Of a DNA stretch of 64,000 nt, positions 60-64,000 are shown in pieces. How positions within the stretch are numbered: the stretch's first letter is position 1; each line of letters begins with the position of its first letter. Position numbers and translations under genes: made by a program. The DNA is from Naegleria gruberi (lineage: Eukaryota). The notes under the pieces were generated by a model. The model searched no databases, was not told the origin of the DNA, and was given only the letters and a program-made list of their open reading frames with translations. The stretch is taken from assembly GCA_000004985.1 (NCBI GenBank), contig GG738852.1. One strand, given 5' to 3'.

Positions 60-2306
60 TTGGATGATACGGAGAGGGATGCCTTGTCTGCTGATGAAGA
101 TGTCTTTCCAACATTTCGATCAGTAATTATGGGAATGGAGGAGGGGAATGATTTGGAGAGAGCTCCATCTTCCTCACAACATCATTATAGAGATGGATTT
201 GGAAGGAATGATGATGAGGATCATGATTTCAAACTGGGTCACAGTTGGGAAACTAATAAGTGGTTGAGGTGAGTTTACTTGTTTGGAATTTTTAGTTTAA
301 ATTGGTGAATTTACAGAATTGGAGTTGTTGTAACGTTTAGTTTGATGGCAATTCTTCTTTTTGCCTTTCTCATTGTAATAATTACATTAGCGAGTCGATC
401 TGTGCCAACTAATGGAAATAATGTTATCAATAATTCAACATCTTGGGAACCACCAGTTACAGAATCTGGTATTGTAAATTTGATTAGAGCAACAAATGGT
501 GCAACAGCTGCAGACAATGAAATTTGCTCAAATATTGGAGTGAAAATAATGAGAGATTATGGGGGAAATGCTGTGGATGCAGCAATTGCGACAAGTTTTT
601 GTATTGGAATTATGAATCCTTTCAGTGCAGGAATAGGAGGTATGTTTCTCAATTCATTTTCGAAAGTTGAAATATTTTCACATCAATAATACTTGGATGA
701 ATCAGGAGGAGGAATTATGGCAATTTCCAAACCAAGCACAAATGGAGAATCGATTGTGGAATATATTGACTATAGAGAAACAGCACCCTCTGGAGCATCT
801 TGGGATATGTTTTCAAATATGCAACCAGTTGACGGAGCACCTCCTTCTCAGAGAGGTGGAAAAAGTATTGCTGTTCTATCAGAAGTGAAAGGTCTTTATA
901 CTGCCTGGCAAAGGCATGGCTCTATTAGTTGGAATTTACTCGTTGAACCATCAATAGAGTTGGCTAGAAATGGAGTAAAGGCTAATGCAGTGATAGCTGG
1001 TCATTTACAAAAATACAAGAATTGGGTTGTCAGGGAATCATTTGGTTCAGGAATGAAACAAGTTTATGGAACAGCTGATGGAGATGTTAAAAAAGAGAAT
1101 GATTTATTGGTCTATCCTAAACTTGCCCAAACTTTGGAACAAATTGCTATTTATGGAGCTAATGCGTTGTATAGCTTGAATGGCTCTCTGATTCAAGATT
1201 TATTATCAGATTTACAACAAGCTGGAAGTATCGTTACAATGGACGATTTACTCAATTATCAAGTTAAAATTTATTCAACTCTTAACACCAACGAAGAGCA
1301 GCAACCTCTTTCAACCTACTTTATGGGCTACAAGGTATTTGGTCCACGACCAGTAATATCAGGCGGCTCTTGTATCATTTTCATGTTGAACATGTTGGAA
1401 AATTTTGTTGGAGAATTATACTCTTCTGCAATGAACAGTGAAAAGGGAGAATATGAGAGGGGAGAGGAATTTCATCTCTCACAGAAAAAGTATGCTCTCT
1501 TTGTGGAGGCACTCAAGTACGCATTTGCACATAGAGGTGACTTGGCAGATCCCGACTTTATTGACATTAAGGATGTTCTTGGAAAAATGACAAGCAAAGA
1601 TTATAGCTCAAAATTGAGAAATGAATTGGAAAAGGCTCTGAGCAATAATTTAACATTCTCTGATCCTCTTCATTACAAATATCAGAAAGATTCAGGATTT
1701 GTCAGAGATGATCACGGAACTTCTCATCTCAGTGTGTTGGATAAGAATGGAATGGCTGTCTCTGCTACCACAACAGTCAACCTGATTTTTGGAAGTTTTA
1801 TTATTGGTGAGAGGACTGGAATTATATTTAATGATCAAATGGATGACTTTTCCCTTCCAAACACCACCAATTATTTTGGACTGGCTCCTTCACCAAGTAA
1901 TTATATTGCAGCAGGTAAGAGGCCACTCAGCTCCATGTCTCCAATGATTATCCACAAGAATAATCAAATCTATCTTACCATTGGTGCCAGTGGTGGCTCC
2001 AGAATTATATCTTCAGTATTTCAAACTATTTGGAATCATATTGTTGGTGGTTTGGATATTGCCAAGGCGATTCAGTTCCCAAGAATTCACCATCAATGGA
2101 GCCCTGACTCACTCGCAATTGAGCAAGGTATTCCTGATGACCTAGTATCATTTTTGAAGAATTATGTTAATGGAGGATCCATTAGTAGAGTTCAAGGTAA
2201 TCCTGAATTCAGTGTTGGAATAGTTCAAGGAATAGTTAAAAAGGGAGCTAATGAAATTGAGGCGGCTTCAGATATTAGAAAAAAGAGTAAAGCTGCAGGG
2301 TATTAA
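60..2306 (+). CDS. GGT: Gamma-glutamyltranspeptidase (GGT). It is a three-exon gene. Exon 1 runs to 268, with the first in-frame ATG at 129 (the ORF is open from 48). Intron 269..316. Exon 2 is 317..639, encoding a signal-anchor TM and the start of the large subunit. Intron 640..705. Exon 3 is 706..2306.
   Basis: ORFs 60..272, 342..689 and 693..2306 join in frame through GTGAGT..TTTACAG and GTATGT..AATCAG introns. The joined protein has a TM segment (LMAILLFAFLIVIITL) and the GGT signature (GNAVDAAIA, the GIGGGG region, and the catalytic Thr region TSHLSVLDKNGMAVSATTTVN). The spliced reading gives AGIGGGGIMAIS, which matches the GGT consensus around the autoprocessing site. Confidence 0.88.
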
Positions 2307-2377
2307 TCATCTCAATTAACCAACATTGATCAATTAGATTTCTAATTTAATAAAAATCTAATTAGAAAATCAAAAAA

Positions 2378-5300
2378 ATGAAAAGAAATGTAAATAAACC
2401 ACCACTCAAATCATCTCGAGGAAGTTCATTAGATATTGCCATAAGGAAGGGATTATATGGAATGTAGGTGTTGTTCTTTGTGATGAAAGATTAATTTGGA
2501 TAATTTTATCAAATAATTAACTGCACGGAACGAATAATACTATTTTATATTTAAATGGAAGAACTTTGGAACAATTACAAGAGTTTAATGATAATCATGA
2601 TGTTTATAAATTACAAAACGAATATGGAGGAGCCCACGGGTTGGCACAAGCTCTCGGATCAAATATTAAAGAGGGAATTAGTAATTATGAAGTTCAGGAA
2701 AGAGGATTTCATTTCGGAAAACATTTTAGTTTGCAACGAGTGAGTCCAACACGATATAATTCATGGTTCCGATTATTTATTATTACATTTAAGGATTCTT
2801 TCATGAAAACCTTCTTAATTTTGGCAATAATTTCAATCATTCTGGGAGTTATTCTGCCCACAGAACAAAAAGAGAGAAGAAAGGGTTGGATAGAGGGTGT
2901 CTCGCTTCTGATTGGGTGTCTCTTTGTTTGTGTGGCGAATAGTTTTATTGGCTGGCAAAAAAAGAGAAAGTGGAATGAGATTCACACCTTACAAGATGCT
3001 CAATACAGAGTAAAGGTAACACGTGATGGAAAAATTACATCCATTCTTATGGAAAATTTAGTGGTTGGTGACATACTTCATGTAGAACCTGGTGATTTTG
3101 TTACATGTTCTGGAATAGTTGTTGATTCACATAATTTAATTTGTGATGAAAGCTTTTTTACTGCCAACGATACTAACTCACTCAAAGATAAGAATTTGAA
3201 TCCTTTTATTGATCCAGAAACGTTTATTGTAGAAGGTTATGGTAGCATTCTTGTCACTTCAGTAGGAGTTAAACAAATCCTTTTGGATGCTTTACTGAAT
3301 TCTAAAGATGAGGAGTCTTCCTCTCCTTTGGAAACTCGTCTTTTCTCCATAGCTAATAATATTTGGAAAATAGCTATTGGCTTTTCATTGAGTGTTTTTG
3401 CACTCTTGATGGTTGGGTGGACCATTTATAAGATTGGACTCATACAAAACTATCAGGAGGAATGGATTGTTACTGATCTATTGACAGTTCTCAAAATGAT
3501 ATGTTTATGTTTTTCTGTACTCTTTGTTTGTACTCCGAATGGAATTTACAAGATAATTACCACTTCAATGGCCTACTCTTCACGTAAAACTATAAGAGAC
3601 AATATCCTTCTGAGTGTGAACCAGAATATGGATGTGAGTGAAAGGTTGGGATATACTTCACAAGTGATTATTGGAAAGTCGGCCCTTACACAAAAATCAA
3701 TGGAAGTTGTCAAAGCGATCATTGCAGGTGAAAATATTGAAATTGGCACAGGAGATGTTCAAATTGATGAAACTCTTTTACAAATTTTATCGAGTGCCTT
3801 ATCTGTGAATTCGAGGGCTGATATTAGAAATGATGATAATATGCAAATAGAGGAGAGTATTGGGGATTCTTTAGACTGTTCCCTATTGATTTTTCTTCAA
3901 CAAATTGGAGTAGATTATGCACCTATAAGAAACTATTATTTTGAGAATAACAAAATTGTAAAAATGTTTACAAAGAAAAATGGAACCATGACAACTATTG
4001 TGAGGAATAATGGAAATTATATTCTATTTACCAAAGGATGTTATGAATCCATTCTTGAAAATTCATCTGGAGAATTGTTGAAAGAAGGAGTTGTTGCTTC
4101 ATTCACTGATAACAGAAAAGAAGAGCTCCGAGAAACTATGAGCAAACACATTCAAGAAGGATATACAATAATTGCAATAGCTTACAGAGAAATTGAAGAC
4201 ACAAACATTCTCTTTGAGAATAATTTAACCATTGATGACGACTGCTACAGTAATTTAGTATTAATATCATTCCTGATTATTCTTAACCCATTAACCACAG
4301 GAATTAAGGAATCCATATCTCAATTGAGAGACGCTGGTATTTTTGTGAGGTTGGTTACTGGAGAAAGTGTTTCATCCGCAAAGAGACTTGCAACTGAATG
4401 TGGAATTATGACTGAAGATGGTACATGTCTAGAAGGCCCTTCGTTTTTCAATCTGAACGAAGATGAGCTCATTAAAACTCTTCCTAATCTGCAAGTGGTT
4501 GCCAGAGCAAATAATGCACACAAGTACCATCTCATTTCTGAATTACAGAAACAGGGGGAGTTTGTCACCATCCTCTCTTCATCTCACAAAGATGTCCCCT
4601 CCATAAGAAAAGCAGATATTGGAGCTGTTTGTGGAATTAAAGGATCACATTGGAGCAAATACTACGCCGATTTGTTTATTACAGATGATAGACTGAGTTC
4701 TCTTGTGAGAGCCATCGCTTGGGGAAGAGCTTTGTTTTACAATATTCAAAAGTATCTAGTTTTTCACATGACTATCAATATTGTAGTCATGACATTGACT
4801 GCAGTTACCTCTATAACTGCCTATCTTTTGAGCCCAGTTCAGTTTCCACCCTTCAATCCAGTCCAATTGTTATTTGTACATATTATCATGGACATTTTTG
4901 CAGCTCTTTCTCTGGCTTCTGATCCTCCTCATAAGGAAACTATGAAACAAGATCCAATCAAACCCAAATCAAGTATTGTAAGAAAGAATATGAAATTTCA
5001 CATTGTTGGTCAAATTCTCTATCAGTTAGTGGTATTGATGATTTTGCACTATAGTGGAATTTATATTTGTATCAACAATAAGGATGGCGACAAGTTGTGT
5101 CTGAGTGATCCTGGAACCTCCTTCAAATCATCCAAATCATCCCAAGTTGTGGAAACAATGGTATTCAATACTTTCATATTTTGTCAAATATTTAATGAGA
5201 TTAATTGTAGAAGAATTGATAATGGGATGAATCTATTGAAGAATATTCACCATTCATTATTATTTGTGGCAATCTTCATTCTTAATATTGCATTTCAAGT

Positions 5301-10732: not shown

Positions 10733-13134
10733 ATGACTCTTTCAGATGGTGTGATTGGTCCACTCGGAGATGATGAGGTTAGAGTGATGGATAAAGCTAG
10801 TGATGGTGAATTATTACCAGTGGAAGAGGAGGAGAAAACTAATAACGAGTGTGGAAATGGTAAACATTGGAGTTTGGCACAATTTTTCAATAATCAATTG
10901 ACTATTGATAAACTTCAGACAGATTACATGCTCGAATATTATACTAATTGCCACAAGATTCATTTGGAGAAAAAGCTGCAACGAAAAGGTTTAGAATTTT
11001 CACCAAGTTTTTCCAGAGACGATTTCAACACATTGTTGGACGCTGTTGAAACATTTACAATATCTCAAAGTGATTTTCCAAGAGATCCATCTGAAGAGGA
11101 TCCACTTTGTATTGGAGAGGAGGGATGGCATATATTGTGTCATTGGATGCAACCTCTTTTTAAAAAACAGGGAAAGAATGCATCTTCACTTGAAGTGGAG
11201 CCACAATGTGAAATATGCCAAAAACATGAGAATATTAGGCAAGCTTTTGAGAAATTTAACAATACGAGAGTTCAATTATTTGAAGGAACTTGTCATACTC
11301 CACTGAGTGTATTTGAAAAGTTTGTTGATTTGTGGAATCAACAAAAATATTTACAATATTCTCGATTTGAATTGAGTGATCATGGATGTGCCAATATATT
11401 TGCAAGTGGACTATTGAATTGTACACTTACTCATTTTGTTTTTGTAAGTATAATGAGATTTTTTAAAAATCAAACAAATTCATGAAGGGAAGAGATTCAC
11501 AAGGTGAAAATCCACAAGATCCTCATCAATGTGTTTGTATACTGAACGCTCTCGAGCATAACACATCAATTGTTTCAATTGATTTAACTGATCTAATCAT
11601 TGTTCATGACTCTGTTGCAAAAGCAATTGCTAGCATGCTTAGAAATAAGAAGAGTCTCAAAAGATTGGTCATTTCAAAATTGAGTTTATCCAAGACAATT
11701 TACAACACCAGTATTATTGATGCTATAGTAGATTCATCAATAACCCAAATAGAGATTTACACCTATGATGGTAAATTGAATAGCAATTTCAGATTTTTAG
11801 AAAATTCGAGTAGAAATGATTTGAAAAAGTTGGCATCCAAACCATTCACCAGTTTTATGTTTATCAGTTATAATTTTACTTTCCCAATTGATTATTGCTA
11901 TTTATTTGCGGAAATGCTAAACAACAAATCCATAGATTATTTGCATTATAGTATTGACGATATTGATGGAGTTGTCAGATCTGAAGATGATCCAGTTAAT
12001 GAATATCAGCAATTTATTGACAATCTCTATAGTGTCATTGAGAAAACTGAAGAATTTTATTTCAAAGGTCATTATCTACTCAATTCCACTCCTAAACAGG
12101 AGCATCATATTGTTAAACATGGAAAGCGAATAACATCCTATTCACCCTATTTGAAATTCCTACAAGTAGCCACAAATTCAGAAGAAGATGTGAAACTTTC
12201 CCAAATAGGATTTTTACGTGTAAAATATTTTATCAATGTTGGATTCCCTCGAATAATTCCATTCTTTAGTAGGGTCGTAAAGACTACACTCAAATTGAGT
12301 AAAATGAACGATGAGCGGATGCAAATATTTTCAAAGGCAATTTTGAGTGCTCCACTCTTGGAAAAGCTAATTCTGATTAGAGTTGATAAATTAGGTGTGG
12401 AAACCCCATTCTCACAATATTTCAAAGTTCAAAACAATAGCAAGTTGAGAAAGATAATTTTCTCAGGAACAAACAATAATACTCTTATGGATGCATTCTC
12501 CACATTTTTGGATTTGAATTATTTCCCTCACCTTACTGCTTTTTATGTACGAGGAAAAGAAGGAGAGATAAGCTTTGAGGCTATTGAAGTATTGATTAAT
12601 TCGATACAGAGACAAGACCCATTCTATCCTAAAGGTTTAAGAAAGTTAGAACTTTTGGAGGGATCCATTAAAGACGCTCAAAGCACAGAATATATACTGA
12701 AATCCCTTACTAGCAATAGACTTTTAGAAACATTGGGTATAACCAAAGCACCTCTCGAAAATATAGATATATTTGTAGATTTCATCATTAATAACAAGTC
12801 AGTGACCGAACTCAAACTTAATTACTCAGATTGTGTCACCATACCTGCGGATTTAATGTGTACAGAAGAACAGGTTACACCTCTATTTTTGAAAGTTTTT
12901 GGAGCTTTTCAAATCAATTGGACCCTACTTGCAATAGATTGGTACGTTGAATACTATTGGAATACCTTTGAGTTTGGTACAGTGAATTATGTTGGAGAGC
13001 GTTTCCTTGTAGAAAGAATAATGAGTAGAAATAAGGCTCAAAAACATATCAACTCTCTCATGCAACCAATCCTTACACAAGTTGACAAGTTTAATCAATT
13101 GTCTGATATTACTTTAATTTGCAACAACCAATAA
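10733..13134 (+). CDS. Leucine-rich-repeat (ribonuclease-inhibitor-like) protein. Two exons: 10733..11443 and 11488..13134. Intron 11444..11487 (44 nt, GTAAGT..GAAG).
   Basis: ORFs 10733..11485 and 11482..13134 overlap by ATGA in different frames. A GTAAGTAT donor at 11444 and an AG at 11486-87 join them in phase 0. The downstream part carries RNI-type LRRs (SIVSIDLTDL..AKAIASML..KSLKRLVIS...). The N-terminal 237 aa is Cys/His-containing and of unknown function. Confidence 0.5.
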
Positions 13135-13557: not shown

Positions 13558-13559
13558 AC

Positions 13560-15050: not shown

Positions 15051-17318
15051 ATGCCAACCTACTTTCTATTTATTACGGCTGTGCAGGCGTCATCGTCCTT
15101 GTGGCTTCAGAATACTTCGGACACATTGAAGAGTTGTAGGTTTTAATAGTTTTTATTCATGTGATTAAAATACAAAAATTTATTCTTGTTTGACAATATT
15201 GGATCGGATCTAGATGCAAATAAAATTGCTCACAAAATTCAACAAAATCACAAATTGGAGGAAATTGGAGTTGTTTCATATTGTCAAGATCTTGTGGAGG
15301 AATGTTATCCTTCTAAGGATACTAATGAAATTTGTACAAAAATTGAAGAATTAACATTTAGGAATTTTGATTATTCTCCAGATATCATGTCTGGATTAGT
15401 ATCATGTTTTAAAAAGATTGAAGAAACTCAAGGAATGCACACTCATATACAAATTATAATATTTACCGATTATAATGAATTGAATGAAATGTTCTTCAAA
15501 ATCAGACCACCATTCCCTGTAAAATTACATGTATTTTCTATGGCCAAATCACACCACGTTTTGAAACATATTCCTATAACAAGTACAATTGAATCAAGCA
15601 CTGCAACACCATCAGAATCAACAAAGTCATCAGATATTTCTACTAATACCAATAACTTGAAACAATTGACCAAACTTTATACAGGTCATTGTTATTTCTT
15701 GATACCTACCACTAAGAATAATATTGACGAATCAATATTGAGTGAATTTATCAAGAAGTGTTATGACAAGTATAGTGGATATTTGGTGTTTGGTCACTTG
15801 GTTTCACCAATTGAATTGCATCCTGATCCAAACCTTGTCATGTGGCTTTTGGATAGACAACATGATGGAATCCATCCAAGTGCCTCCATGTTGGAATCTT
15901 CTTCATGTTCTGCCAATGAAAGACAATGCCATGTACCACCAATTTTGAATATTGTAGGATTTATTCCAGGTACTGAATTGTCCTCACCAAAATGTATATC
16001 AAAACATACCATTCTTCCTCTCAATGCTGATGACAATGAAGTACCTTATGGTGTCAGAATGTCCAGAAGAGATAAGGAAATTCAATTTGGCAAGTTTAAA
16101 AAAATTGTCAAGGCAGATGCATGCAAGGCTGATGAAGCACCAGCCAGTTTTTACCAACTTTTACACATGACACTTTCAAAATCTAGATCTTTGGATATTC
16201 CACCACCACCTGTAAATAGTGAAATCGAAGAGACTCAAAATCAAAATGAAGCAAAGAGAATTTGTGCCATTGTAAGTCTAGGAGGAATCCCAGAGAGATT
16301 TGCCTATGTGACAGCATGTAATGATGGCGAATTGTCCTCTCTTGTCTTGGGTATTTTCAATGAGGAGCTTGAGTTTTCTGTCAGTGAAGAGTATTGTAGA
16401 AATATTCCAAAAACTCAACTAGCTCACAACAATTTGGCCTATCCTTGGTTAGAGACCGGTGTCGGTCAAATGGTAGAAGAAATGTCAATAGCCAATGCAA
16501 AAGATATAGAAAAGACTGGTGAGCAATTTGATCTCTTTTCCAAGTGTACAAATTTAAAAACCTACAATTATGATCTCAAGCAAACCAAGAATGTAATTGT
16601 ACCTTTCCAAAAAGTTGAAACATTATCAAATGATTTTGGTAAAATCATTAGAAATATCAAGAACCTTCCAAAGAAGACTGATTTGGTCACTAACGAATGC
16701 GAAAAACTGAGATATATCTCCCAAGTCTTTCACAATAGCTCCATTATTGATACTCTCAAGCAATTGTTGGAAGAATCAATTGAGAAGAATAAGGAGAAGG
16801 TAAAGACTGAACAATCCACAGAAGCACAAGAACAATTACTCAGATCGAATAGAATTTTGAGAATTATCATTGAGCAATTAGAAAAGAATCCAAAAGCCAA
16901 ATTGAAACCACCAAAAGGAGAACACTTGTTCGAATCAGTGAGTCAAGAGCTTGCCACTATTAAGCATCAACACTATGAACAAATGCAACACCAAGTTCAT
17001 CCTCAACAGCAAATGCCAATACATACTGCCCACCATGTTGTTCCTCAACACCATTATATGGTACCAATGCCAGCAGATTCATCCCCACACGTCATGCCAC
17101 AATATCCATACGCAGCTCAACCATTGCCTTACGAATCAGGTTACCCACTCCCAATCCAACAAGCACCTCAAGTACCTTATCCTTATCATTCACACGCTCA
17201 TCCTCCACCAACAGCTCACTATGCTCAGTACGATCAACACTACATGGGTCAAGCCAATCAAATACCAATGGATCCTCATCAACAACATGCACCGCCTCAC
17301 AAGAAGCAAAAACAATAA
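15051..17318 (+). CDS. Integrator complex subunit 14-like (VWA9/INTS14 family) protein with a C-terminal Q/H/P/Y-rich low-complexity tail. Model: exon 1 is 15051..15135 (MPTYFLFITAVQASSSLWLQNTSDTLKS), intron 15136..15213 (GTAGGT..TCTAG), exon 2 is 15214..17318.
   Basis: Ours NIVGFIPGTELSSPKCISKHTILPL matches human INTS14 LEIVGFIDIADISSPPVLSRHLVLPI. Ours PFPVKLHVFSMAK matches PFPSKLYIMCMAN, and KNLPKKTDLVTNECEKLR matches RKLPEKTQTFYKELNRLR. The upstream micro-exon begins MPT plus a hydrophobic run plus S.S, like human MPTVVVMDVSLSM. Donor and acceptor phases are compatible (1+2). Confidence 0.58.
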
Positions 17319-25810: not shown

Positions 25811-28052
25811 TTATTGCTGCTCTTGTTGTCCTTTAAGTGCAACATCCAGAATGGCTTGAAGCTTGTCAACTTCACATTGTGCAACAGTTTTGAGAGATCC
25901 GTTTTCTGTTTTTTTGCCAGCAGTGTTTCCACTGTCTTTATCCTTATTTTCTGGAGGTCGTCTAAGATTTGGAGAAAGCTTTAATGTCTGTACGAGACCC
26001 TTGTCATCACCAACCAAAAGACAGAAGCTCATCTTGTGTAAAGCTTCAACAGCTTTTTGTTGAGCTTGTGGGTTCTTACTGTCAAAGAAGGAACTGTCAT
26101 ACAGATAATCAGCTGAAGTAATCGGATTGAATTGAACGTGGGTAAGTTTGGCCTTTTTCACAATCAACGAACAAGCATCTGTAAGAGAGTCTCTCTTGTT
26201 AATACTTAAATCATAAACTTGAACTCTACCGTCATCAGTGACAGCTGCAAAAATAGTGGAAGAGTATGGAGCCCAATCGACACCGCCAACACCACTGCCT
26301 AGATCGAATGTCATTAATGGTTGAGCATGATTCATATCCCAGAGTTTGACATTCCAGTCAGCACTAGCTGAAAGGAAAACGTTAGAGTGGAAATGATTCC
26401 ACTTGACACTATACACATTCATGTGGTGACCTTCATATGTTCTGAGATATTGAGAGTTGTAAGCTTTGGAGCATAAGTGAATTTTACCTTCCTCAGTACC
26501 AACAACAAACAAGTGTGGATGTTTTGGATTAAAGTCAAAGCAGGTACCACCAGAATAGGCTACCAAAAAGTCTTCCGTAATCTTTGAAGGATTCATTTGT
26601 GTGAAAGACGCATTTGTTGAGAAGGATTTTTCTCCATCAAAAGTTGCTGACAGAGCTTCAACTTTCAAATGCATAATGTCGGTATATTGCAATTCATTCT
26701 TTGAAAGAGTCCAATTAGTAACTCTACCGTCACTACTGACAGAGAATACTGAAAGAGATGATGAAAGACTTTCAGTTTCCCACTTGAGTTGCCACACAAC
26801 ACCATTGTGTTTACCATTTTTAACTGTTGAATAGATGAGTGGCTTTGTATCCTTTTGTCTAATATCGAAAATCATACAAGTACCATCATATAAACCAACA
26901 GCAAGAAGAGATGGATGTTTAGGATGGAAATCCAAACACATTGCGCCTGATTCAGTATGGAAAGAATATTCTGGAACACCTGGATTTTTCAATGTATAGA
27001 TACAGACCAAACCACCTGCTTGTTTCAAAAAGTTGTAACTACCATAACTGACTGCAAATAGATCAGAATATTTAGGATTCCAACAAACACCAGTGACAGA
27101 CATTTTCTTCTTTTCTGGATAAGGGAATCTCCAAAGTGGCAAGAGAGAACCTTCAGTTCTTCTCTTTTTATCTTCCACAACATCATCCGAAGGATCATCC
27201 CAGTATTTGTAATCGTGAAGAATTTCTTCCATAGAATTTTGATTTAGCATTCTTTCCATAAGTTTTAAGGTTGAGCTCATTTCCTTTGTGTGAATAATTT
27301 CTTGAGGTGTCTTGGCTCTAAGAGGCTTCTTTGATTTTCCTGATGATTTTCCGCTTTGTTTCTTTAATTCTTCAAAGTGCTGTTGATAGAAATCATGAAT
27401 TTCCCATTGTGTAGCTGTAATTTCGAAAAGTTCTGCTGCTGGAGGTTCTGTCATGATTTCCATTTCCTTCATTGGATAGTTGAATGTTTGTACTTCTCTG
27501 TCGGAATAGTTGAATTGATTTCTCAAAACATCCTTCTTTTGTAAAATATCTTCAGCCCCCATACCGTCAGTTTCCACATCGGCTTGTTCTTTGAGCTTCT
27601 TTTTTAATAATTCTCTTCTTAGTTCATTTTCTTCCTTTTGAAGTTTTGCTTCGGTACCATCTTTCAAAATAAGGAAACTATTTAAATTTCAATAACAACA
27701 ATTTTCTTAAAAACACATACCCATCATCGGCAAAGTGGAAAGCTGCTTGTTCCACCGTGTGATCGAATTTAAATGTTCTATCTTCGTGGTTAAATCTTAC
27801 AATATTTTCTGGAGCATTAGGATTTGTTCCTTCCAAAATTCTATCAACTTCCTGATTTAATTCCTCTTCACTAAGAGCTATTTGATCATCAATTTTATGG
27901 ACTTTCTTACTTAATTGTCCTCCAAAATGAGATGAAGGTGGTTCATCAAAACTTCCTTGAGCCTCAGGTCTTCTTCCAACATTTGCATTAGCAGCTTTAT
28001 CATTGCTTGGAATGGTCTTTTTAGCTGCTTGTGGGGCTGTTGCTTTTTTCAT
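25811..28052 (-). CDS. Axonemal (outer-arm type) dynein intermediate chain, a WD40 protein. Exon 1 is 28052..27721, intron 27720..27678 (43 nt, GTATGT..AAATAG), exon 2 is 27677..25811.
   Basis: The N-terminal block ILEGTNPNAPENIVRFNHEDRTFKFDHT and the block FNYSDREVQTFNYPMKEMEIMTEPP match dynein intermediate-chain N-terminal regions. WD40 repeats follow. The exon join is phase-2 compatible (GG|T). Confidence 0.78.
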
Positions 28053-46016: not shown

Positions 46017-48589
46017 ATGAGAAATATTAGGCAGAGGAAAATAGATCCCAACAAGCCAATGCCTGTTGTTATCTTTTATTCTCTACTCAACACATATTGT
46101 AATGCTTCCTCGAAATCATCAACAACGAGCACGGCTCAAGAATCGGCATCATCAACTTGTTTATCAACAACACCCACTTCCGAGCTATTGGAAACAATGA
46201 TGACCAAATTGAAGAAAACAAATGGGTATAAAAACATTGAGAATCACTATAGGAATATATCCCAACGATTATCAATGTCTGATTTAGATGAGATGAAATT
46301 AATTATGAAAGAATCTGGTCTTGACGAAGAAACATTGAAGGTATGTTCCATCTTATAACATTGATTATTGAGAATCCGTAAAAGTCTATTCGACATGCTC
46401 AAGAAATTGCTGATGATCAGGCAAATAATTATACCTATGACCATACACTTGATAGCGATGCTCATGAGGATGGCCATCACAGTAGTGGCAGTAGAGGAGG
46501 ATTAGGAAATTCGAGAAGAGGTGGAAGTGGAGCCATTAAACAATCATCTCATCAACAATCCGAACCACAACATGGTGCAACAGAAAGTGTAATTTTTACA
46601 CCATTTGTAAATATTATTGACATTGACAATATGGAATTATCAGATTTTGAAAATGGAATAACGCCCTCATCCTCAAATAGTTCTGTGAGGTCTCAATTTT
46701 TGGATACAAAAGAAAAGAAGAGACGACGAAATGCAGAACAAAGAACTAGTAGAAAAAAAGTTAAATATCAGCCACCACCTCAATACATACATTTCCATGA
46801 AAAAACAACACAGGTTGTTGAACCTGAAAAGATAATTTACGATATGGAAGATGACGATTTTGAGTGGCTTTCTAATTTTCAAACAAAATATTTGGAAGAA
46901 TATGAAATGTGCATTTGTAATAATTCAAATTTGGACCTACTTTTACAACGTTGGAAAGTCACCCAAAAGGATAATCTTCCTACTCCAAGTCAAGTATTGC
47001 ATTTATTTGATGAAGATTTTATTGAAGAATCAATAGATAGATTTGAAAAGACGACATCTTTTTCCAATGAGCTATGCTCATTCAAGAGTGCTATTAACAA
47101 GTTTCCTTCACTAGGTAGATTATTTTTTGATATTGAAATTTTTACTCAAGAGACTAAGAATGAAACAAAAGGCTCATCAAAGAAGAGTTCTGCAGAAAAA
47201 CTTTCACGAAATAATCGATTTCTCCACTCCTCTATACCCATTATTACCACTACACATCGAGTTGATGACTCTGACAGATACAAATTTAATCTGTTCAATC
47301 AATCAATTACTTGTAATAGTTTAATACCTCCTTCAAACTCACAAAATCCTTCACAACTAGAAAAGAGTACCAACTCTCTAGGAAATTCTAAGTCCCCAAG
47401 TAGTAGCACTAATGGCTACAACAATTTAACAACTTCCCTTTTTCCCTCCCAACCACAATGTACAAATAATATTATCAACAACAGAGAAAATAATTCTGAA
47501 AAAGTACTACCAACTCAATTCCTATACGAAATTTATTTATTTTGGAGATCAAAACGATTATCTAGAAGAGTAACCAACACTGACAAACAACTCTATCCTT
47601 ATTGTGGTAAACCACTGCTTGTAGATTTTGAAAAAGAGCCAGATATTAATGATCAAAGTCCTCATGCTGCTTTCAGACTTAGAGAATTACCAAAGAAACA
47701 AACAGAAGAAATACAAAATGATGAAGCCTCCCTGTACAAATTAAGAAAATTGAAAAAAGAACTTTCCATGTTGAAAGATATAATGACCAAAGTTAATGAA
47801 AGAGAATCTAAGAAATTGGACTATGTCAAATTGACCCGAGATATTTTGCTGTTTGAGCAAAATAAAATACCAGAGGCACCAATACCTGATCCTTCCAGTG
47901 CCACCAATGAGGATACATCCATTATAATAACACAACAAACGGAAAATGAACAACAACAGCAAGCCACCGAAACAATAGTAGAAAAGCCTTACTATGAACC
48001 AATATCAGAAGAGGCTTGGAGCGAGCAATTTAGTCAAGACGAATCTGGTTTTACAACAATGAATTTACTTCACTTTATGGAAATTTTAAAGAAAAATAAT
48101 AGACCATTCTTTCCATTCTTGCTACAATATGTTAAAAAGACAAGAAGTTTTGAAGGAGACGAAGTCATTCCAGAACAATTCAACACCATGCTTCCAAAAT
48201 ATGTGCCTGGTAGTGAATATAATGTGAGTTTATCAGCAAGAAAAAATTCAGTCCTTTTTGATACAGAATCTTTGAATCAGGATGAGTTGACAAGAAACGA
48301 AATGAGAATGGACTATACAATTGATAACTTGTTGAATGACGAGATCGAGACACAAAAAAAGTTGTTTGAGGCAGCTGAAAATAATAATGGAACTTGTTCA
48401 ACGGAAATGCTATTAAGCATGTTGGATGAGGATGAAAAGGAAGCTCCTCCTAAACAAGAGCCTATTGGTCCAATTGTTGAAGTTCAACTGAGCGAATTTG
48501 AAGAGAAATCGTCAAATCCCAATGAAAATATTACTTCCATTCAATTTCCAAAAACAAATGAGAATAGTTTTGTGTATGGTGAAGAATAA
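46017..48589 (+). CDS. Enhancer of Polycomb-like protein (EPC/Epl1, NuA4 subunit). Exon 1 is 46017..46340, intron 46341..46384 (44 nt, GTATGT..AAAAG), exon 2 is 46385..48589.
   Basis: Exon 1, RNIRQRKIDPNKPMPVVIF...ENHYRNISQRLS, matches the EPC N-terminus (RARALDASKPLPVF...EHHLQRAIS). Exon 2, KKVKYQPPPQYIHFHEK...IIYDMEDDDFEWLSNF...IDRFEK, matches the EPcA blocks (YDLDSEDEVFVNKL, DRLEK). The join is phase 0/0. Confidence 0.72.
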
Positions 48590-48719: not shown

Positions 48720-51055
48720 TTAAGGGTAGAATTTAACTGAATTTTTCTTTTCAAAGAACCAAGGAGAAACAAGTTCATTGTAAGTTTCACATCTTGATTC
48801 CTCTTCTTGTTTGTCGTCTTGTGTATAGAAGGAATTTGTTTGTGCATAAGCAGAAGGCTTAACAGGGTGTTTAGGGTTAAAGGTGGCTAGACGAGATCCC
48901 TGAGCGGTTAGCAAACAACAATCTCCTTTTGAAATGGAATGACCATATTCACTTGTCTTATAGAATCTAGCTCGACAGAATGAAAAGTAGATTCCTGCAG
49001 ATTTGAATTTTTCATTAAATAACGTTTGGTAAACTTGAAGTTCAGCAAGTTCTTGTTTTGAAATTCCTGAAATTGATAAACCCACATCATCTAAAAGTTG
49101 ACCAACTGGCATTGTTAATAATTTTTCCATTGTATGAATATTGAGAGTAGCACAACATCTCTTAAAACAAAAATTCTCAAAAAGACCTTCATGAAGAACA
49201 GCTGAACTACCTTTTGGTTTGGCAAGATTCATTTTTACAAAGAGTGATGCCAACTTGGTATCTTTGAGTGTTGAGTTTAGAGGATTACGGGTAGGAAGAG
49301 AAGTCATCGAAATTGATTTCATACCATTTGTATAGATATTCAGTATATTCTTGGAGCTATCAGATATTATCATGATAGCTAGAAGTCTGCTGAGCTCTCT
49401 TTCATCCCCCATAATATAGTGACGAAGATGAATAGATGCTTGCTTGTTAGTGGTAAAATCATTACGTTGAGTCCATCTATTTCTGGAGGGATCATTGCAT
49501 GATACTCTTCGTGTATAAAATATGTTTGTTGGTACAGCTAGATCCAAAACAAGTAAAGATAGTGGATTTGGCATAATCTTGGAATCAATACCATCAACTT
49601 TTTGGAAATGTATACCAGTAATTTGTTTGAAATTAATTTCCATCGCTAAAACAATACTATTTTTAAGTCTTTCAAACTCTCTAAACATTAAACCTTTCAA
49701 TCCAGCCTCAGTCAAGGCAGATTTCAATACAGGGAAATATGTTAATCTTTCTTGTTCAGATTGGAAGTTGTTTTGGTAAAGTGGTGAATAAGTATAGAAT
49801 GTGTATATGAGGGCATGTCTATATGGATTAACCTTGATACGGAATTGACCATCATACGAAGGATCAGGAGACCAATTTCCAACTATTGAAATTCAGTAAT
49901 AATCAACAAGTAGTACTTACTGGTTATTCTCTTAATTCTAGCACCATCTGTCTTGTACTCTCTCATTCTTTCTAATTCTGTTTCGTCAGTGATGCCCCTA
50001 GTTTCAGGGTCTGTTGGATCAACATCAAATTCACGATCTTCAGAGAAATTATTTGTATCGAAATATAAACTATCAAGTGGCTTTCCAGATTTTTCCAAAT
50101 GTTCCTTTTTTTGCTTTTTTGATATTATTGTTGCCTTGGCACTATTAAGCACATCTGCACGTTTTGTGACCCATTCAGAAGTTGGTTGTTGACTCTTAGG
50201 AATAAACTTTTTCTCAACAAATTGTTGTAGAAATTCATTACTTGGATGAATTTCATAAGCACTGAGATACTTCAAATATCCAGGAGTGGAGGGTCTAATA
50301 TTAAATTTTGGATTATTAGCGGTTCTTCTCAGTTCCTGAAGCAACATCATCTTCCTCACATCGGTAAGGAGTGGTCTCAATGCATTGAGTAAGGTACGAT
50401 AGTAAATTGAATCTTCATTCGAACAAGGATCACATGATAAGATTACACATACTGTTTTCAAAACTGACTCCATAGCTTCTTCTTGCATCGTTTCAAAGAA
50501 GCCCTCAACTACATCAGTTTGTAAAAACTCTTTGGCCTTTTTTTCTTCTGATTCAGTAATGTCCTCAATTACCACTCCACGGTTTTTGATTTGTTTGGCA
50601 TCTTTAGCTTGCTTTTTTGCTTTGAGCTTTTTCTCCTTCAATTCTTTGGATACAAGACCAAAAACTCTGCCAAATGGTGACTTGTCACCAGTATAAATTT
50701 CAACATCCTCCTCATTGTCTTCTTCTTCATCCTCATCCTCATCTTCCTCATCTTCATCATCATGCACTTCCTCTCCACAACATGGACAAACTCTGCCACC
50801 ACTTGAAGGAGGAATCACCCCCATGTCCATTAACATTTGTTGAAGGAGCATCTTTTTCATTAGATCTTCATCATCCTCATCATAATATTCGTCATCATCC
50901 TCATCAGTGTAGTATTCATCATCATCATCATCCTCATAATCATCATCGTCGTATTCATCATCATCATCGTCTTCATCCGATTGGAATTTTGGAACAATTC
51001 TTGAACCTTCACCACCTGTAAAATTAAAACTTGGTGTAATATTTGCATTATTCAA
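48720..51055 (-). CDS. Hypothetical protein of about 775 aa with an extremely acidic DE/Y-rich N-terminal region and a CPCCGEEV motif. Exon A is 51055..49911, intron 49910..49873 (38 nt, GTAAGT..CAATAG), exon B is 49872..48720. The true start is uncertain; an upstream frame MGKNKKTHNSSGGGKKAANSS... at 51276 may join through a small intron.
   Basis: ORFs 49883..51055 and 48720..49727 join in phase 1 across a 38-nt GTAAGTAC...CAATAG intron, giving ...ARIKRIT|IGNWSPDPSYDGQFRIKVNPY.... No domain was recognised. Confidence 0.55.
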
Positions 51056-54567: not shown

Positions 54568-56032
54568 CTAGAATGATTCGTCTAAAACATTTTCAACATC
54601 ATCAAAATTCTCAGAATGGGCAGTGTGGTCGCTGAAATCATTAAGTGAATGATTACTGGCATTATCCTTAAAATCATCAGAATAGTTATCATTAAAGTCA
54701 CTACCACCTGAGAATTCAGAAATAGCTTCTCCTTGATCCCAATTTTCTTCACCAAAATCAACATCTTCCTCAAAATTGTCAGCAAACTCATCAATATCAT
54801 GGCCATGATGGTTATCAAAATGGTCATCCAATTGTTCATGGTCATGATCACCAAAGTGATCACTGTGTTGACTGTGAATCGAATGATTGCTGTGCTGACT
54901 CGTGTTACTATGATTACTAAGTTTTCCTGCACTATGATTTGAATGTTGACTATGATTACTCTTTTGACTTTGTGAACTCTTTTGACTTGTTGGAGAATCA
55001 ATGTCTGAAATGTCCAAGTCTGAATCCTCTTCAAATACACTTGTCAGGAAGGCAGACTTTGGTTTTGGTTTTTCCTCAATAATAGGTGGCGACTTGTTGG
55101 CTGGTTGGGTTATTGGTTTGAGGGGTGGTAATTTTTGTGAAATAGTTGGAGCATCTGACAAACTAGATTCCTTTGGGCTTGATTCTGGAGATGTCTCATT
55201 TGGTTTCTTTTTGGTTCTCTTCTTCATGGTTGAACTCAATTGTTCTTCTTCGAATGAGTCCTCTAGAAGAGTTGCTTGGCTTATCATTGGTGAGTTATTT
55301 TGTGATGATGAACCAGTCATGTTGGTGAGAATTGGAGATGGTTCAACATTAACAGGAGAGCTACTTGTGATGTTCGAAATGATTGGAGATGAAGTCTTAG
55401 TTTCCATAACTTTAGGTGATGAAGTGGAGAATGATGTTTGTTTTGTTAGGGTTGGTGATTGAGAAACAGTTTGTTGAATATTACTAGTTGTTGTGGAATA
55501 GTTAGCAGAATTTGAGAGTCTGGAAAATAATTGAAGCAAAAGAGGTTTGTCTGCACTCAAAGATGAGGTGTCAATATTTTGTTTTGCTAGCATTTCTCTA
55601 ACTTGGCTTCTATCATTTGATTCCTATTATTATTTGGATGATTTTGATTTCAATATTAGATATGATATCAATTACTTACCAAGTTTGCTTCTGGTAAAAG
55701 TACACTCTTTGAAAATTTAAGGTCATAAAAATCAAAGTATTCCAGAATTAATTGAGCCAGTAAAGAATCTGTTGCGTGGTCAGGAAATAAATTCTATTGT
55801 ACTTACTTTCTTGATTTCCTTTAATAGACTCCGATTTGTGATTTTGATAATAAACATCACCTCTTGGTCTTCCGTGCAAAACATCATAAACGCTTGCTCT
55901 CATCTGAGCCTTATATCTACCTAAAACACCGGTACAAGTTAGTGTTTGAGCAACCATATCCTTTAATTCTAAGACCTGTCTATTATCTGCCATGTTCATT
56001 GCTGTTGTTGAGGTGAAAAGACTTGTTGCCAT
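54568..56032 (-). CDS. FOP/FGFR1OP (TON1-like) centrosomal protein, about 456 aa. It has an N-terminal FOP-dimerisation plus LisH-like region and a long Ser/His/acidic tail. Exon 1 is 56032..55807, intron 55806..55769 (38 nt), exon 2 is 55768..55680, intron 55679..55624 (56 nt), exon 3 is 55623..54568.
   Basis: Exon 1 MADNRQVLELKDMVAQTLTCTGVLGRYKAQMRASVYDVLHG matches the FOP N-terminus (ELRDLLVQTLENSGVLNRIKAELRAAVF). Exon 2 LAQLILEYFDFYDLKFSKSVLLPEANL matches the second FOP block. Both introns are GTAAGTA..(C/T)AG with compatible phases. The C-terminal acidic DFxD repeats resemble the FOP tail. Confidence 0.72.
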
Positions 56033-58753: not shown

Positions 58754-59495
58754 TTATATCAATTCCTTCTTTAAACAAACTTTTTCTTTTGGAACAACTT
58801 GACCAGCTTGTCTTTCAATTTCTTGTTTAACAAATTCAATGACTTGTTCTGGAGTTTCGGCAACTTTGAACAATTTTCTCGAATCTCCCTTTCCAACAAA
58901 TCCATCCTGTTCAGCCCTATCCAATAACATGATCAAATGTGCATAATATTGATTGGTATTCAAAATAATAATTTCACCATCAAAAAGTCCCAATTGTTTC
59001 CAAGTAATTGATTCCAAAACTTCCTCCAATGTACCAACACCTCCAGGTAAAGCAATACAAGCACACACATTCTGAATCATTAATTGTTTTCTCTCATGCA
59101 TTGACTCGGTAATTATCAATTCGGAAATGAAATTCTTATCAACGTGCCAATTACGATCCACCATGAATTGAGGTAAGATACCAGTAACATAACCACCCTC
59201 ATCCATACATCCTTCCCTTGTTGTTAATATAATACTGTGGAAATTTCTTCAACAAACACATACCTTTAGCAACTCGGAACATTAACCCACAATTACCTGC
59301 ACCATACTTGAGAGAAATTGAGGAGCGAGCCAGGAGCTTTCCCACCTCTGTGGAGGCTTGTTTGTATTCGTCTGGTAAATTTTCAGAGGCTGCACAATAC
59401 ACTGCAACGGAATATTGATTTGGATTGATGATGGTAGTAGTACTCAACTTGAGAGTTTCATCAACTAATGAAGATTGATTTTCATTGTTTAACAT
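58754..59495 (-). CDS. LOG-family protein (cytokinin riboside 5'-monophosphate phosphoribohydrolase / lysine-decarboxylase-like fold). Exon 1 is 59495..59264, intron 59263..59212 (52 nt, GTATGT..GGGAAG), exon 2 is 59211..58754.
   Basis: Exon 1 has VAVYCAAS...LKYGAGNCGLMFRVAK. Exon 2 has (G)CMDEGGYVTGILPQF...ALPGGVGTLEEVLESITWKQLGLFDGEIIILNTNQYYAHLIMLLDRAEQDGFV. The splice restores the GGGxxGLM-(8 aa)-DGG-x-V-x-GIIP spacing and the PGGxGTxxE motif of LOG proteins. The join is phase-1 compatible. Confidence 0.72.
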
Positions 59496-61736: not shown

Positions 61737-61825
61737 TCTGTATTGTTTATAATAAATTCATTCACATATATCTTTAAGGTTGTAAATAAGTTTAATCATC
61801 AAGTTTCAACTGAAAATATTGAGTT

Positions 61826-62626: not shown

Positions 62627-62654
62627 ATTATTATCAATCATTCAATCATTTAAA

Positions 62655-64000
62655 TTAGTTGTGAGAGGTGAATAATTTAATGAGTGGTTTTTTGGCAACC
62701 TTTCCCATAGCATTCTTTGGAATTTCCTCTCCCTCTGGTAAGACAATGAGACGAGTTGGTATCTTGTATTTGGCTAGGTCACGAGAGCAAAAATCTTGCA
62801 ATTCTTTCAATGTGAGTGTTTGACCTTTGTGAAGCGAGATGAGAGCACCAACTCTCTCACCATACTCCTCATCTGGTACTCCCAAAACAGCACATTCCTT
62901 AATCTTGCTCATATCGAGAATTACTCTTTCAATATCGAGAGCTGATATTTTGTATCCACCAGATTTAATAATATCAGAACTGAGTCTTCCACAAATTTTG
63001 TAATAACCCTCCTCATCGATTAATACTGAATCTCCTGTAATGAAATAGCCATCCTCTGTAAAAGCTTTTCTGGTTGCATCTGGTCTACCTAAATATTCTT
63101 TAAAAATACTTGGACCTTTGACTAATAATTCACCTGGCTCATTCGGTTTTGTAATTTCCTCCCTTGTGTCAAAGTCAACAATTTTAACTTGAACTGTGGG
63201 AAGTGGAAAGCCAACACAGCCCATCTTTCTCTTTTCCTTATCCATTGGGTTTGAAATAGCCATTAGAATTTCAGACATGCCAAATCTTTCCAATAAATTA
63301 TGATGCGATATTTTTTTCCATTTTGAATAGACTGAAGTTGGTAAGGCAGCACTTCCAGATACCATCAATCTCAATTTCTCAACTTGCTCAGTGTAGTGTT
63401 TTTGAGTTTTATGAGAAAGCTCATCATAGTAATGAATAAGTTTGACATAAATGGTTGGAACTGCCATGAACACATTAATATGTTTTTCGTCTGGTTTCTT
63501 GTCTGAATTGGTCAATTTCTTCCATACTTGTTCGGGATTGAACTTCAAAAACTCAATGGTAGCTGCACAATAGAGTGGGCAAGTAAGAGCATTGATTAAC
63601 CCATGAACGTGATGAAGCGGAAGTAAATGAAGGATCATATCCTTCTCAGTCCACTCCCATTCAGAACAGAGAATATTGGCTTGTGCCAATATATTTGAAA
63701 ATGTGAGTACAACAGCTTTTGGGTTTCCTGTTGTGCCTGATGTGTACACAATTAACTTGTATTCATTCGAATATTAATATTTTCCTTAAATAAATATTGA
63801 GCTACCTACAGATCCATTTTCCCTATCGTTTTGTTTCAAATCAATCACTTGAAGCTTTGAATTATCAATTGATTTGGTCAAGGAGTTATCATATTCTATA
63901 AATTTGATATGTTTCATTTCTTGAAATAAAGGTTCCAATGAACTCTTCTTTTCCTTTTGATAAATGACAACCTTACATTGGGAATCATCAATATAATATT
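62655..64000 (-). CDS. AMP-dependent synthetase/ligase (acyl-CoA synthetase family; ACSF3/malonyl-CoA-synthetase-like not excluded). It is 5'-partial: exon 1 runs from beyond the window end to 63810, intron 63809..63756 (54 nt, GTAGGT..ACAAG), and the final exon is 63755..62655.
   Basis: The exon join gives ...NDRENGS|LIVYTSGTTGNPKAV (AMP-binding motif I). Downstream are YGMSE, TGD and the hinge ...GRLSSDIIKSGGYKISALDIE, then a Lys-containing C-terminal domain. The upstream frame stays open to position 64000. Confidence 0.78.

What the first reader, a model, noticed from the sequence alone, without database searches (positions are those of the whole stretch)
269..63809. Uniform class of very short introns (38-98 nt), including two 38-nt introns, with strict GTAAGT/GTATGT/GTAGGT donors
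Eleven gene models are interrupted by short introns. The hand-derived ones are:
- 269..316 (48 nt)
- 640..705 (66)
- 2464..2561 (98)
- 11444..11487 (44)
- 15136..15213 (78)
- 27678..27720 (43)
- 32077..32144 (68)
- 35348..35404 (57)
- 46341..46384 (44)
- 49873..49910 (38)
- 55769..55806 (38)
- 55624..55679 (56)
- 59212..59263 (52)
- 63756..63809 (54)
All start GTA(A/T/G)GT and end (C/T/A)AG, and all phases are compatible with the flanking conserved protein blocks. The 38-nt introns are near the lower limit for spliceosomal introns. Many ORF-track fragments that look like separate or overlapping genes are really exons.
Basis: seen in the sequence. Interest (0 to 1): 0.5.

Follow-up and report, generated by a model that had tools for sequence, protein, structure and literature searches.

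The report
Ordinary short introns in Naegleria gruberi
The window is a gene-dense piece of the already sequenced amoeba Naegleria gruberi, and the 14 listed interruptions are real but ordinary short spliceosomal introns of a kind already annotated for this organism.

Summary
The window is Naegleria gruberi NEG-M nuclear DNA: four spliced models are letter-for-letter identical to RefSeq proteins.

All 14 proposed introns hold up, with corrections:
- 49873..49910 is mis-registered by 10 nt. The real 38-nt intron is 49883..49920 on the minus strand.
- Two donors are not GTA(A/T/G)GT: 269 is GTGAGT and 35348 is GTAAAT.
- The 14 introns lie in 12 genes, not 11.

After correction, every intron has GT..AG ends. 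Each has one phase that joins two open frames, and the unspliced frame stops within 21 codons.

Six junctions are present in RefSeq proteins. Ten are crossed by alignments to solved structures, Pfam domains or uninterrupted homologues. Only 11444..11487 rests on annotation and frame logic alone.

The set is 38-98 nt long (median 53) and 25% GC against 35% for the window. Acceptors are AAG (5), TAG (5) and CAG (4). There is no polypyrimidine tract.

The donor hexamer itself is not enriched (44 observed, 58.6 expected). What exceeds chance is its coincidence with frame-joining positions (27% against 3-7% for decoys).

38 nt is short, but not near the known lower limit: Stentor introns are 15-16 nt. 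Transcript evidence could not be obtained here.

Verdict: real, correctly interpreted, already known, low interest.

The parts
269..316 (+). 48-nt intron, phase 2, GTGAGT..CAG, in a gamma-glutamyl transpeptidase gene (its 5' end runs off the window)
   Evidence: The junction peptide NKWL|RIGVV is present in the RefSeq N. gruberi GGT protein P0008. Frame logic agrees. No independent homology covers this junction.
640..705 (+). 66-nt intron, phase 1, GTATGT..CAG, same GGT gene
   Evidence: The junction GIG|GGG is in P0008. The alignment to human GGT1 (4gdx) is gapless across it.
2464..2561 (+). 98-nt intron, phase 2, GTAGGT..AAG, after a 29-codon first exon (ATG at 2378) of a plasma-membrane-type Ca-ATPase
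   Evidence: LYG|ITLEQL aligns without a gap to human PMCA1 (6a69, FGITLAEL) and Arabidopsis ACA8 (8qmp, FGITPEQL). The RefSeq model P0010 is 5'-partial and starts 3 residues after this junction.
11444..11487 (+). 44-nt intron, phase 0, GTAAGT..AAG, in a protein with no recognised domain (785 aa)
   Evidence: The spliced product is identical to XP_002680792. It joins 239 and 548 open codons. There is no homology evidence.
15136..15213 (+). 78-nt intron, phase 1, GTAGGT..TAG, after a 28-codon first exon (ATG at 15051) of an Integrator subunit 14-like gene
   Evidence: The exon 1 to exon 2 product aligns from residue 1 with orthologue P0012 (MPTVVLFVSA...LKQYSTKI), E 3e-40. That orthologue is encoded without an intron in L002.
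27678..27720 (-). 43-nt intron, phase 2, GTATGT..TAG, in an outer-arm dynein intermediate chain gene
   Evidence: The spliced product is identical to XP_002680959. HFADD|GFLILK aligns without a gap to Chlamydomonas IC78 (7kzm_D).
32077..32144 (-). 68-nt intron, phase 1, GTAAGT..CAG, in an ankyrin-repeat / acid-lipase-like gene
   Evidence: Gastric and lysosomal acid lipase alignments (1k8q, 1hlg) run through the junction region with only small gaps. In-frame acceptors further downstream would delete 16-22 more residues. The region is variable, so the exact acceptor is the least certain of the set.
35348..35404 (+). 57-nt intron, phase 1, GTAAAT..TAG, in an RGS-domain gene
   Evidence: The spliced product is identical to XP_002680796. 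The Pfam RGS domain matches residues 23-146 as one stretch across the junction at residue 43.
46341..46384 (+). 44-nt intron, phase 0, GTATGT..AAG, in an enhancer-of-polycomb-like gene
   Evidence: The spliced product is identical to XP_002680797. The intron sequence is identical in the 99.4%-identical metagenome contig L001.
49883..49920 (-). 38-nt intron, phase 1, GTAAGT..TAG.
   Evidence: It joins 426 and 387 open codons. The distant homologue P0011 aligns continuously across KRIT|IGN (..ADLQRLQIGS..), E 3e-13. The only AG that could serve as an acceptor is the terminal one.
55769..55806 (-). 38-nt intron, phase 1, GTAAGT..CAG, first intron of a FOP/LisH-domain gene
   Evidence: The Pfam FOP_dimer domain matches residues 64-139 as a single stretch spanning the junction at residue 75 (E 4.8e-11). 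The FOP structure 2d68 aligns over 71-139. This junction lies near the domain edge.
55624..55679 (-). 56-nt intron, phase 0, GTAAGT..TAG, second intron of the same gene. The 89-nt exon between the two introns encodes the LisH motif
   Evidence: The FOP_dimer and LisH_2 matches are continuous across residue 105. The 2d68 alignment agrees.
59212..59263 (-). 52-nt intron, phase 1, GTATGT..AAG, in a LOG (cytokinin riboside 5'-monophosphate phosphoribohydrolase-like) gene
   Evidence: RVAK|GCMD aligns without a gap to the Arabidopsis LOG structures 2a33 and 1ydh.
63756..63809 (-). 54-nt intron, phase 0, GTAGGT..AAG, in a malonyl/oxalyl-CoA-synthetase-like gene (its 5' end runs off the window)
   Evidence: ENGS|LIVYTSGTTG aligns with 3nyq and 4fuq across the junction, directly before the AMP-binding motif.

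Best explanation
The 14 intervals are ordinary U2-type (GT-AG) spliceosomal introns in 12 nuclear protein-coding genes of Naegleria gruberi strain NEG-M. Shown here: each is removed in one phase to give a continuous reading frame, and that frame matches either the deposited protein or homologues from other organisms. Inferred: the 5' end is recognised by pairing of the GTRAGT-type donor with U1 and U6 snRNA. Also inferred: because the introns are short (38-98 nt), AT-rich and lack a polypyrimidine tract, the two ends are most likely paired across the intron (intron definition). A branch adenosine probably lies about 8-20 nt upstream of an HAG acceptor. In all 14, retention would end translation almost at once, because the unspliced frame meets a stop within 1-21 codons; most of these stops lie inside the intron.
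For: Organism: the spliced models of four genes are identical to RefSeq N. gruberi proteins on a 938,756-bp scaffold.

Annotation: six junctions (269, 640, 11444, 27678, 35348, 46341) are present in RefSeq proteins.

Homology across the junction:
- 640: human GGT1.
- 2464: PMCA1 and ACA8.
- 15136: an intronless orthologue.
- 27678: Chlamydomonas IC78.
- 32077: gastric lipase.
- 35348: Pfam RGS domain.
- 49883: homologue P0011.
- 55769 and 55624: Pfam FOP_dimer.
- 59212: LOG structures.
- 63756: malonyl-CoA synthetase structures.

Anatomy: GT..AG in 14 of 14, G at position +5 in 13 of 14, T at +6 in 14 of 14, and 24.9% GC against 34.7% for the window.

Frame logic holds for all 14.

Strict donor hexamers sit at frame-joining positions 4-23 times more often than decoy hexamers.

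Annotated genes of a related heterolobosean locus carry 42-, 45- and 57-nt introns with GTAAGT or GTAAGA donors and AAG or TAG acceptors.

Literature: N. gruberi has 1.7 exons per gene (PMC8296547), and splicing and intron retention have been seen in its RNA-seq (PMC6142364).
Against: No transcript data could be examined here, so excision is inferred rather than seen.

Eight of the 14 junctions lie in loci where the spliced model is not identical to any deposited protein. For the ATPase, the RefSeq model is 5'-partial and lacks the intron. What the deposited models look like at the other loci is unknown.

The canonical YTRAY branch motif is no commoner than in shuffled introns, and there is no polypyrimidine tract, so the 3' recognition step remains a guess.

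The published mean intron length for the genome is 203 bp (PMC8296547), well above the 56-nt mean here. The 'uniform class' may therefore not describe the whole genome, or the annotation may have a long tail.
Confidence: 0.95

Rival explanations
1. The interruptions are sequencing or assembly frameshifts, or mutations in decaying pseudogenes, and not introns.
For: The window does contain at least one such case outside the list. A 2-nt difference at 51195-51196, relative to a 99.4%-identical metagenome contig, breaks the 5' reading frame of the gene at 48.7-51.2 kb. A frame change inside a GAA/GAT repeat in the gene at 13560-14844 has no convincing intron.
Against: All 14 intervals are bounded by GT..AG with a strong donor. 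They are 38-98 nt long rather than 1-2 nt, and they are 10 points poorer in GC than the window. Five have lengths divisible by three, so those do not shift the frame at all. Homologues lack the corresponding residues. The two listed introns covered by the second strain's contig are identical in it.
Confidence: 0.02
2. The flanking ORFs are separate, independently translated small genes rather than exons of one gene.
For: Prokaryote-style gene callers run on metagenome copies of this DNA report them as separate ORFs. One example is P0009, which reads through the 38-nt intron to a stop, and another is the 335-aa ORF that follows it.
Against: Single protein domains (GGT, LOG, RGS, FOP_dimer/LisH, AMP-binding, lipase, dynein IC, PMCA N-terminus) are split between the ORFs and become continuous only after removal of the interval. 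Several downstream ORFs have no in-frame ATG until well inside a conserved domain.
Confidence: 0.01
3. The intervals are introns, but at least one of the 14 junctions is placed at the wrong donor or acceptor, or is alternatively spliced or often retained.
For: Other in-frame acceptors exist for the donors at 640, 27720, 32144 and 46341. The lipase junction lies in a variable region where the alignment has small gaps. The 55769 junction is at the edge of the domain match. Junctions 269 and 11444 rest on annotation and frame logic only. Intron retention is reported as the dominant alternative-splicing mode across eukaryotes including N. gruberi (PMC6142364).
Against: The two 38-nt introns have no alternative usable AG.
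Confidence: 0.12

Closest known systems
Annotated spliceosomal introns of the Naegleria gruberi NEG-M genome (Fritz-Laylin et al. 2010, cited in PMC3488318; genome statistics in PMC8296547)
   Same: It is the same organism and the same scaffold. Six of the 14 junctions are in RefSeq proteins. Intron density here (14 introns in about 29 genes, 12 genes interrupted) is close to the published 1.7 exons per gene.
   Different: Eight junctions lie in loci where the spliced model is not identical to a deposited protein. For the Ca-ATPase, the deposited model is 5'-partial and lacks the 98-nt intron. The mean length here is 56 nt, against a published genome mean of 203 bp.
Short-intron classes of other compact eukaryote genomes, such as the related heterolobosean assembly GCA_041937235.1. 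From general knowledge, fission yeast and many fungi are similar.
   Same: Lengths are 40-100 nt, donors are GTAAGT-like, acceptors are HAG, and the introns are AT-rich. Annotated neighbours of the INTS14 orthologue in L002 have introns of 42, 45 and 57 nt with GTAAGT or GTAAGA donors and AAG or TAG acceptors.
   Different: The INTS14 orthologue itself has no intron at the position of 15136..15213, so individual introns are not all shared between the two genomes.
Ultra-short ('tiny') introns: Stentor 15-16 nt and myxozoan medians of 22-27 nt (PMC13644364)
   Same: They are canonical spliceosomal introns at the short end of the length range.
   Different: The shortest intron here is 38 nt, above the roughly 30-nt boundary that defines that group. 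The donor consensus here is full strength rather than reduced.

Membership tests
U2-type (major, GT-AG) spliceosomal introns | GT at the 5' end and AG at the 3' end | tested here: met
   Met in 14 of 14 after moving 49873..49910 to 49883..49920.
U2-type (major, GT-AG) spliceosomal introns | Extended donor able to pair with U1/U6 snRNA (GTRAGT-like) | tested here: met
   Donors are GTAAGT 5, GTATGT 4, GTAGGT 3, GTGAGT 1 and GTAAAT 1. G is at +5 in 13 of 14 and T at +6 in 14 of 14. The snRNAs themselves were not examined.
U2-type (major, GT-AG) spliceosomal introns | Branch-point motif (YTRAY-like) upstream of the acceptor | tested here: inconclusive
   YTRAY is present in 6 of 14 against 5.6 in shuffles. 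NTRAN is present in nearly all, but also in shuffles. A motif chosen after the fact, TGA[AC], with its A 6-30 nt from the 3' end, occurs in 8 of 14 against 2.8 expected (P 0.0035, not corrected for motif choice).
U2-type (major, GT-AG) spliceosomal introns | Removal restores one continuous reading frame collinear with homologous proteins | tested here: met
   The frame criterion is met for all 14. Collinearity with homologues or domains is shown for 10. Identity to deposited proteins covers 6 junctions.
U2-type (major, GT-AG) spliceosomal introns | Excision from the mature mRNA | not testable with these tools
   No transcript data are reachable. N. gruberi RNA-seq exists (PRJEB23822, PMC6142364).
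U12-type (minor) introns | Donor [AG]TATCCTT and a TCCTTAAC branch site | tested here: not met
   None of the 14 donors contains TATCC.
Ultra-short introns (<30 nt; ciliates, myxozoans) | Length below about 30 nt | tested here: not met
   The minimum here is 38 nt and the median is 53. The comparison values come from PMC13644364.
Existing RefSeq/JGI gene models of N. gruberi | The spliced product is identical to a deposited protein | tested here: inconclusive
   Four genes are identical (XP_002680792, XP_002680959, XP_002680796, XP_002680797) and both GGT junction peptides match. Six other complete models are not identical. The ATPase model is 5'-partial and lacks the intron. The terminal gene at 62.6-64 kb is cut by the window and could not be looked up.

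The most novel reading that the evidence does not exclude
The short introns of Naegleria may be recognised through an unusual 3' architecture. There is no polypyrimidine tract, about a third of the acceptors are AAG, and a TGA(A/C)-type branch element lies roughly 8-13 nt from the acceptor instead of a YTRAY motif. A floor near 38 nt may be set by this spacing. As a side product, several deposited gene models at these loci (the Ca-ATPase 5' exon for certain, and up to five others) would need correction.
Probability: 0.2. Interest if true: 0.3.

Novelty: already known. Interest (0 to 1): 0.1.

Why it matters
It matters little beyond housekeeping. The finding confirms that a tool-free reader can recover correct exon-intron structures in a compact protist genome. 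It also gives hand-checked junctions for loci where the deposited N. gruberi models appear incomplete. The clearest case is the 5'-partial Ca-ATPase, which gains its start codon and a 98-nt intron. Short GT-AG introns in Naegleria are part of the published genome description, so no open question is touched.

Tried and rejected
- Exact-sequence look-up of the spliced models. Four of ten complete models were found. Guessed alternative starts for three others were not found. I ran no further search on further guesses.
- The look-up of encoding contigs for the RefSeq proteins found nothing on record, so the annotated exon tables could not be read.
- A chimeric query of junction-spanning segments returned only three proteins.
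- The full-length query for the gene at 48.7-51.2 kb returned only an unspliced metagenome ORF and one distant homologue.
- The N-terminal INTS14 query returned nothing.
I therefore queried with the contiguous second exon, and that worked.
- PDB searches of the INTS14 N-terminus gave no usable alignment.
- tRNA and Rfam scans of the window were empty.
- A permissive GT..AG scan was too noisy to reveal further introns.
- Comparing intron and exon divergence against the 99.4%-identical contig L001 was uninformative, because there are only 38 differing alignment columns (16 mismatches plus indels) and none fall in the two introns covered.
- I considered a spliced-junction search of metagenome contigs and dropped it as very unlikely to hit.
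- An upstream exon or 5'-UTR intron for the FOP/LisH gene at the GTAAGT at 56141 was examined and rejected.
Full report
**What the window is.** The sequence is 34.7% GC and densely packed with long ORFs on both strands. It has no tRNA or Rfam matches. Four are letter-for-letter identical to RefSeq proteins of Naegleria gruberi, all on one 938,756-bp scaffold: XP_002680792, XP_002680959 and XP_002680796 and XP_002680797. The window is therefore nuclear DNA of N. gruberi NEG-M. Its published genome is 41 Mb, 33% GC, 1.7 exons per gene and has a mean intron length of 203 bp (table in PMC8296547). By my count the window holds about 29 genes. Twelve of them carry the 14 listed introns.

**Checking the observation.** Thirteen of the 14 coordinate pairs are exact GT..AG intervals. 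The pair 49873..49910 is not, because it begins CTTGTT. Shifting it by 10 nt to 49883..49920 on the minus strand gives GTAAGT..TAG, also 38 nt, and only that interval joins the two frames.
- The donors are GTAAGT (5), GTATGT (4), GTAGGT (3), GTGAGT (1, at 269) and GTAAAT (1, at 35348). 'Strict GTA(A/T/G)GT' therefore fails twice.
- The acceptors are AAG (5), TAG (5) and CAG (4).
- For each interval exactly one phase has open frames on both sides, from 32+987 up to 751+207 codons.
- The unspliced frame stops within 1-21 codons.
- Lengths are 38-98 nt with a median of 53.
- Pooled GC is 24.9%, against 34.7% for the window.
- Phases 0/1/2 occur 4/7/3 times.
- Five introns have lengths divisible by three, and in each the unspliced frame still meets a stop.

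**Is it more than chance?** The donor hexamer alone is not enriched. GTADGT occurs 44 times on both strands, against 58.6 +/- 6.4 in dinucleotide-preserving shuffles. What is non-random is where the hexamers sit. Twelve of the 44 lie where an HAG 35-100 nt downstream joins two open frames. For 207 composition-matched decoy hexamers the rate is 3-7% (Fisher p 7e-5 to 5e-7). At the strictest threshold the figures are 8 of 44 against 0.8% (p 3e-9).

**Independent support, junction by junction.** Two GGT junctions, and four more in other genes, are present in RefSeq proteins.
- 269 and 640: the RefSeq GGT protein P0008 contains both junction peptides. The second junction is also gapless against human GGT1.
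- 2464: the deposited ATPase model is 5'-partial and begins three residues after the junction. The spliced N-terminus LYG|ITLEQL nevertheless aligns without a gap to FGITLAEL of human PMCA1 and FGITPEQL of Arabidopsis ACA8. The downstream exon has no in-frame ATG before the first membrane helix.
- 11444: supported by an exact RefSeq match and frame logic only.
- 15136: an exhaustive search with the second exon found a 728-aa orthologue with 56% identity. Its N-terminus, MPTVVLFVSA...LKQYSTKI, aligns from residue 1 with exon 1 plus exon 2 (MPTYFLFITA...LKS|YANKI), E 3e-40. That orthologue is encoded by an uninterrupted 2,187-nt ORF in a related 24%-GC genome. More distant INTS14 homologues also begin MPT/MAT followed by a hydrophobic strand.
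- 27678: an exact RefSeq match, plus a gapless alignment to Chlamydomonas IC78.
- 32077: gastric and lysosomal lipase alignments pass through the junction with only small gaps. Alternative acceptors would delete 16-22 further residues.
- 35348: an exact RefSeq match, and the RGS domain is continuous across the junction.
- 46341: an exact RefSeq match.
- 49883: the distant homologue P0011 aligns continuously across KRIT|IGN.
- 55769 and 55624: Pfam FOP_dimer matches residues 64-139 as one stretch over both junctions, which lie at residues 75 and 105. The 89-nt middle exon encodes the LisH motif.
- 59212: a gapless alignment to Arabidopsis LOG structures.
- 63756: malonyl-CoA synthetase structures align across the junction, which lies directly before the YTSGTTG motif.

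**How it most likely works.** These are U2-type GT-AG introns.
- The donors carry G at +5 in 13 of 14 and T at +6 in 14 of 14, as expected for pairing with U1 and U6. This mechanism is inferred, and the snRNAs were not examined.
- The last 15 nt before the acceptor are only 33-60% pyrimidine, so there is no polypyrimidine tract.
- The canonical YTRAY motif is no commoner than in shuffled introns.
- A motif I chose after seeing the data, TGA(A/C) with its A 6-30 nt from the 3' end, is present in 8 of 14 introns against 2.8 expected (P 0.0035, uncorrected). It is only a lead.
- Short, AT-rich introns flanked by long exons fit recognition across the intron. That is general knowledge and was not tested here.
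- None of the donors is of the U12 type.

**Comparison with what is known.**
- Short introns in Naegleria are already documented. The genome paper's annotation contains six of these junctions.
- N. gruberi RNA-seq has been used to study splicing and intron retention (PMC6142364).
- N. fowleri RNA-seq was mapped with a minimum intron length of 30 bp, 'based on an assessment of predicted genes' (PMC8296547).
- In the related locus L002, annotated genes carry introns of 42, 45 and 57 nt with GTAAGT or GTAAGA donors and AAG or TAG acceptors.
- The statement that 38 nt is near the lower limit is overstated. All Stentor introns are 15-16 nt, and some myxozoans have medians of 22-27 nt (PMC13644364).
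- The mean length here (56 nt) is far below the published genome mean (203 bp). This may mean the window is not representative, or that the annotation has a tail of long introns. I could not test either possibility.

**What remains open.**
- No transcript data could be reached, so excision is inferred.
- Six complete spliced models are not identical to any deposited protein. Except for the ATPase, I could not see what the deposited models look like.
- At one locus the difference is explained by a 2-nt difference upstream of the intron.
- The exact acceptor of 32077 and the 55769 junction, which lies at the edge of its domain match, are the least firmly fixed by homology. Junctions 269 and 11444 have annotation and frame support only.

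Noticed in passing
window 51195-51196 (minus-strand gene at 48720-51300): The window carries two extra bases (CT) relative to L001, a 99.4%-identical 6,061-nt metagenome contig. In L001 the reading frame runs 140 codons further upstream to an ATG (MGKNKKTHNSS...). In the window that frame is broken. This is either an assembly error in the reference or a strain difference, and it explains why my model of this gene does not match a deposited protein.
   Followed up: partly
window 5099-5146 (+): The RefSeq Ca-ATPase model removes an in-frame, stop-free 48-nt 'intron' (GTCTGA..AAG, encoding about 16 residues, CLSDPGTSFKSSKSSQ). Its weak donor is unlike the 14 introns verified here. It is probably a prediction artefact rather than a real intron.
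   Followed up: partly
window 13560-14844 (-): A gene with a Rap1 C-terminal domain changes reading frame inside a GAT/GAA repeat. The ATG-containing ORF 14449-14844 and the ORF 13560-14690 overlap by about 240 nt in different frames. The only intron candidate is 166 nt, has a GTAAGA donor and is open inside, so it is unconvincing. A frameshift error or an atypical intron are both possible.
   Followed up: partly
window 39800-41200 (-): This is low-complexity N/Q/S/T/P-rich sequence that is open for long stretches in all three minus-strand frames (ORFs 39852-40217, 39929-40639 and 40636-41145). Its gene structure is unresolved, it has no Pfam match, and it contains a single GTAGGT at 40431.
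   Followed up: no
L002 3001-5187 and neighbouring genes (assembly GCA_041937235.1, 23.8% GC): The INTS14 orthologue of a related heterolobosean has no intron where N. gruberi has the 78-nt one. The neighbouring phytochelatin-synthase and aminotransferase genes have 57-, 42- and 45-nt introns. There is no synteny with the window.
   Followed up: partly
whole window, both strands: GTADGT hexamers are somewhat rarer than in dinucleotide-preserving shuffles: 44 against 58.6 +/- 6.4. Only 32 remain once the 12 real donors are removed. This could reflect avoidance of cryptic donor sites, or simply codon usage.
   Followed up: no
window 2371-2380, 15044-15053, 56030-56041: The start codons of three genes with short first exons or confirmed N-termini sit in an A-run (AAAAAAATG, AAAAAAATG and GAAAAAATG). 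This suggests a strongly A-rich initiation context in this genome.
   Followed up: no
window 5594-9724, 9761-10492, 37056-38672, 45047-45472, 51350-54472, 60330-60737, 61826-62626, 20199-20945: The apparently intronless neighbours include FANCI, a PTPLA/HACD dehydratase, a TenA-ThiD fusion, RPB4, a SUV3 helicase, Erg28, a cob(I)alamin adenosyltransferase and a metallo-beta-lactamase-fold protein.
   Followed up: no
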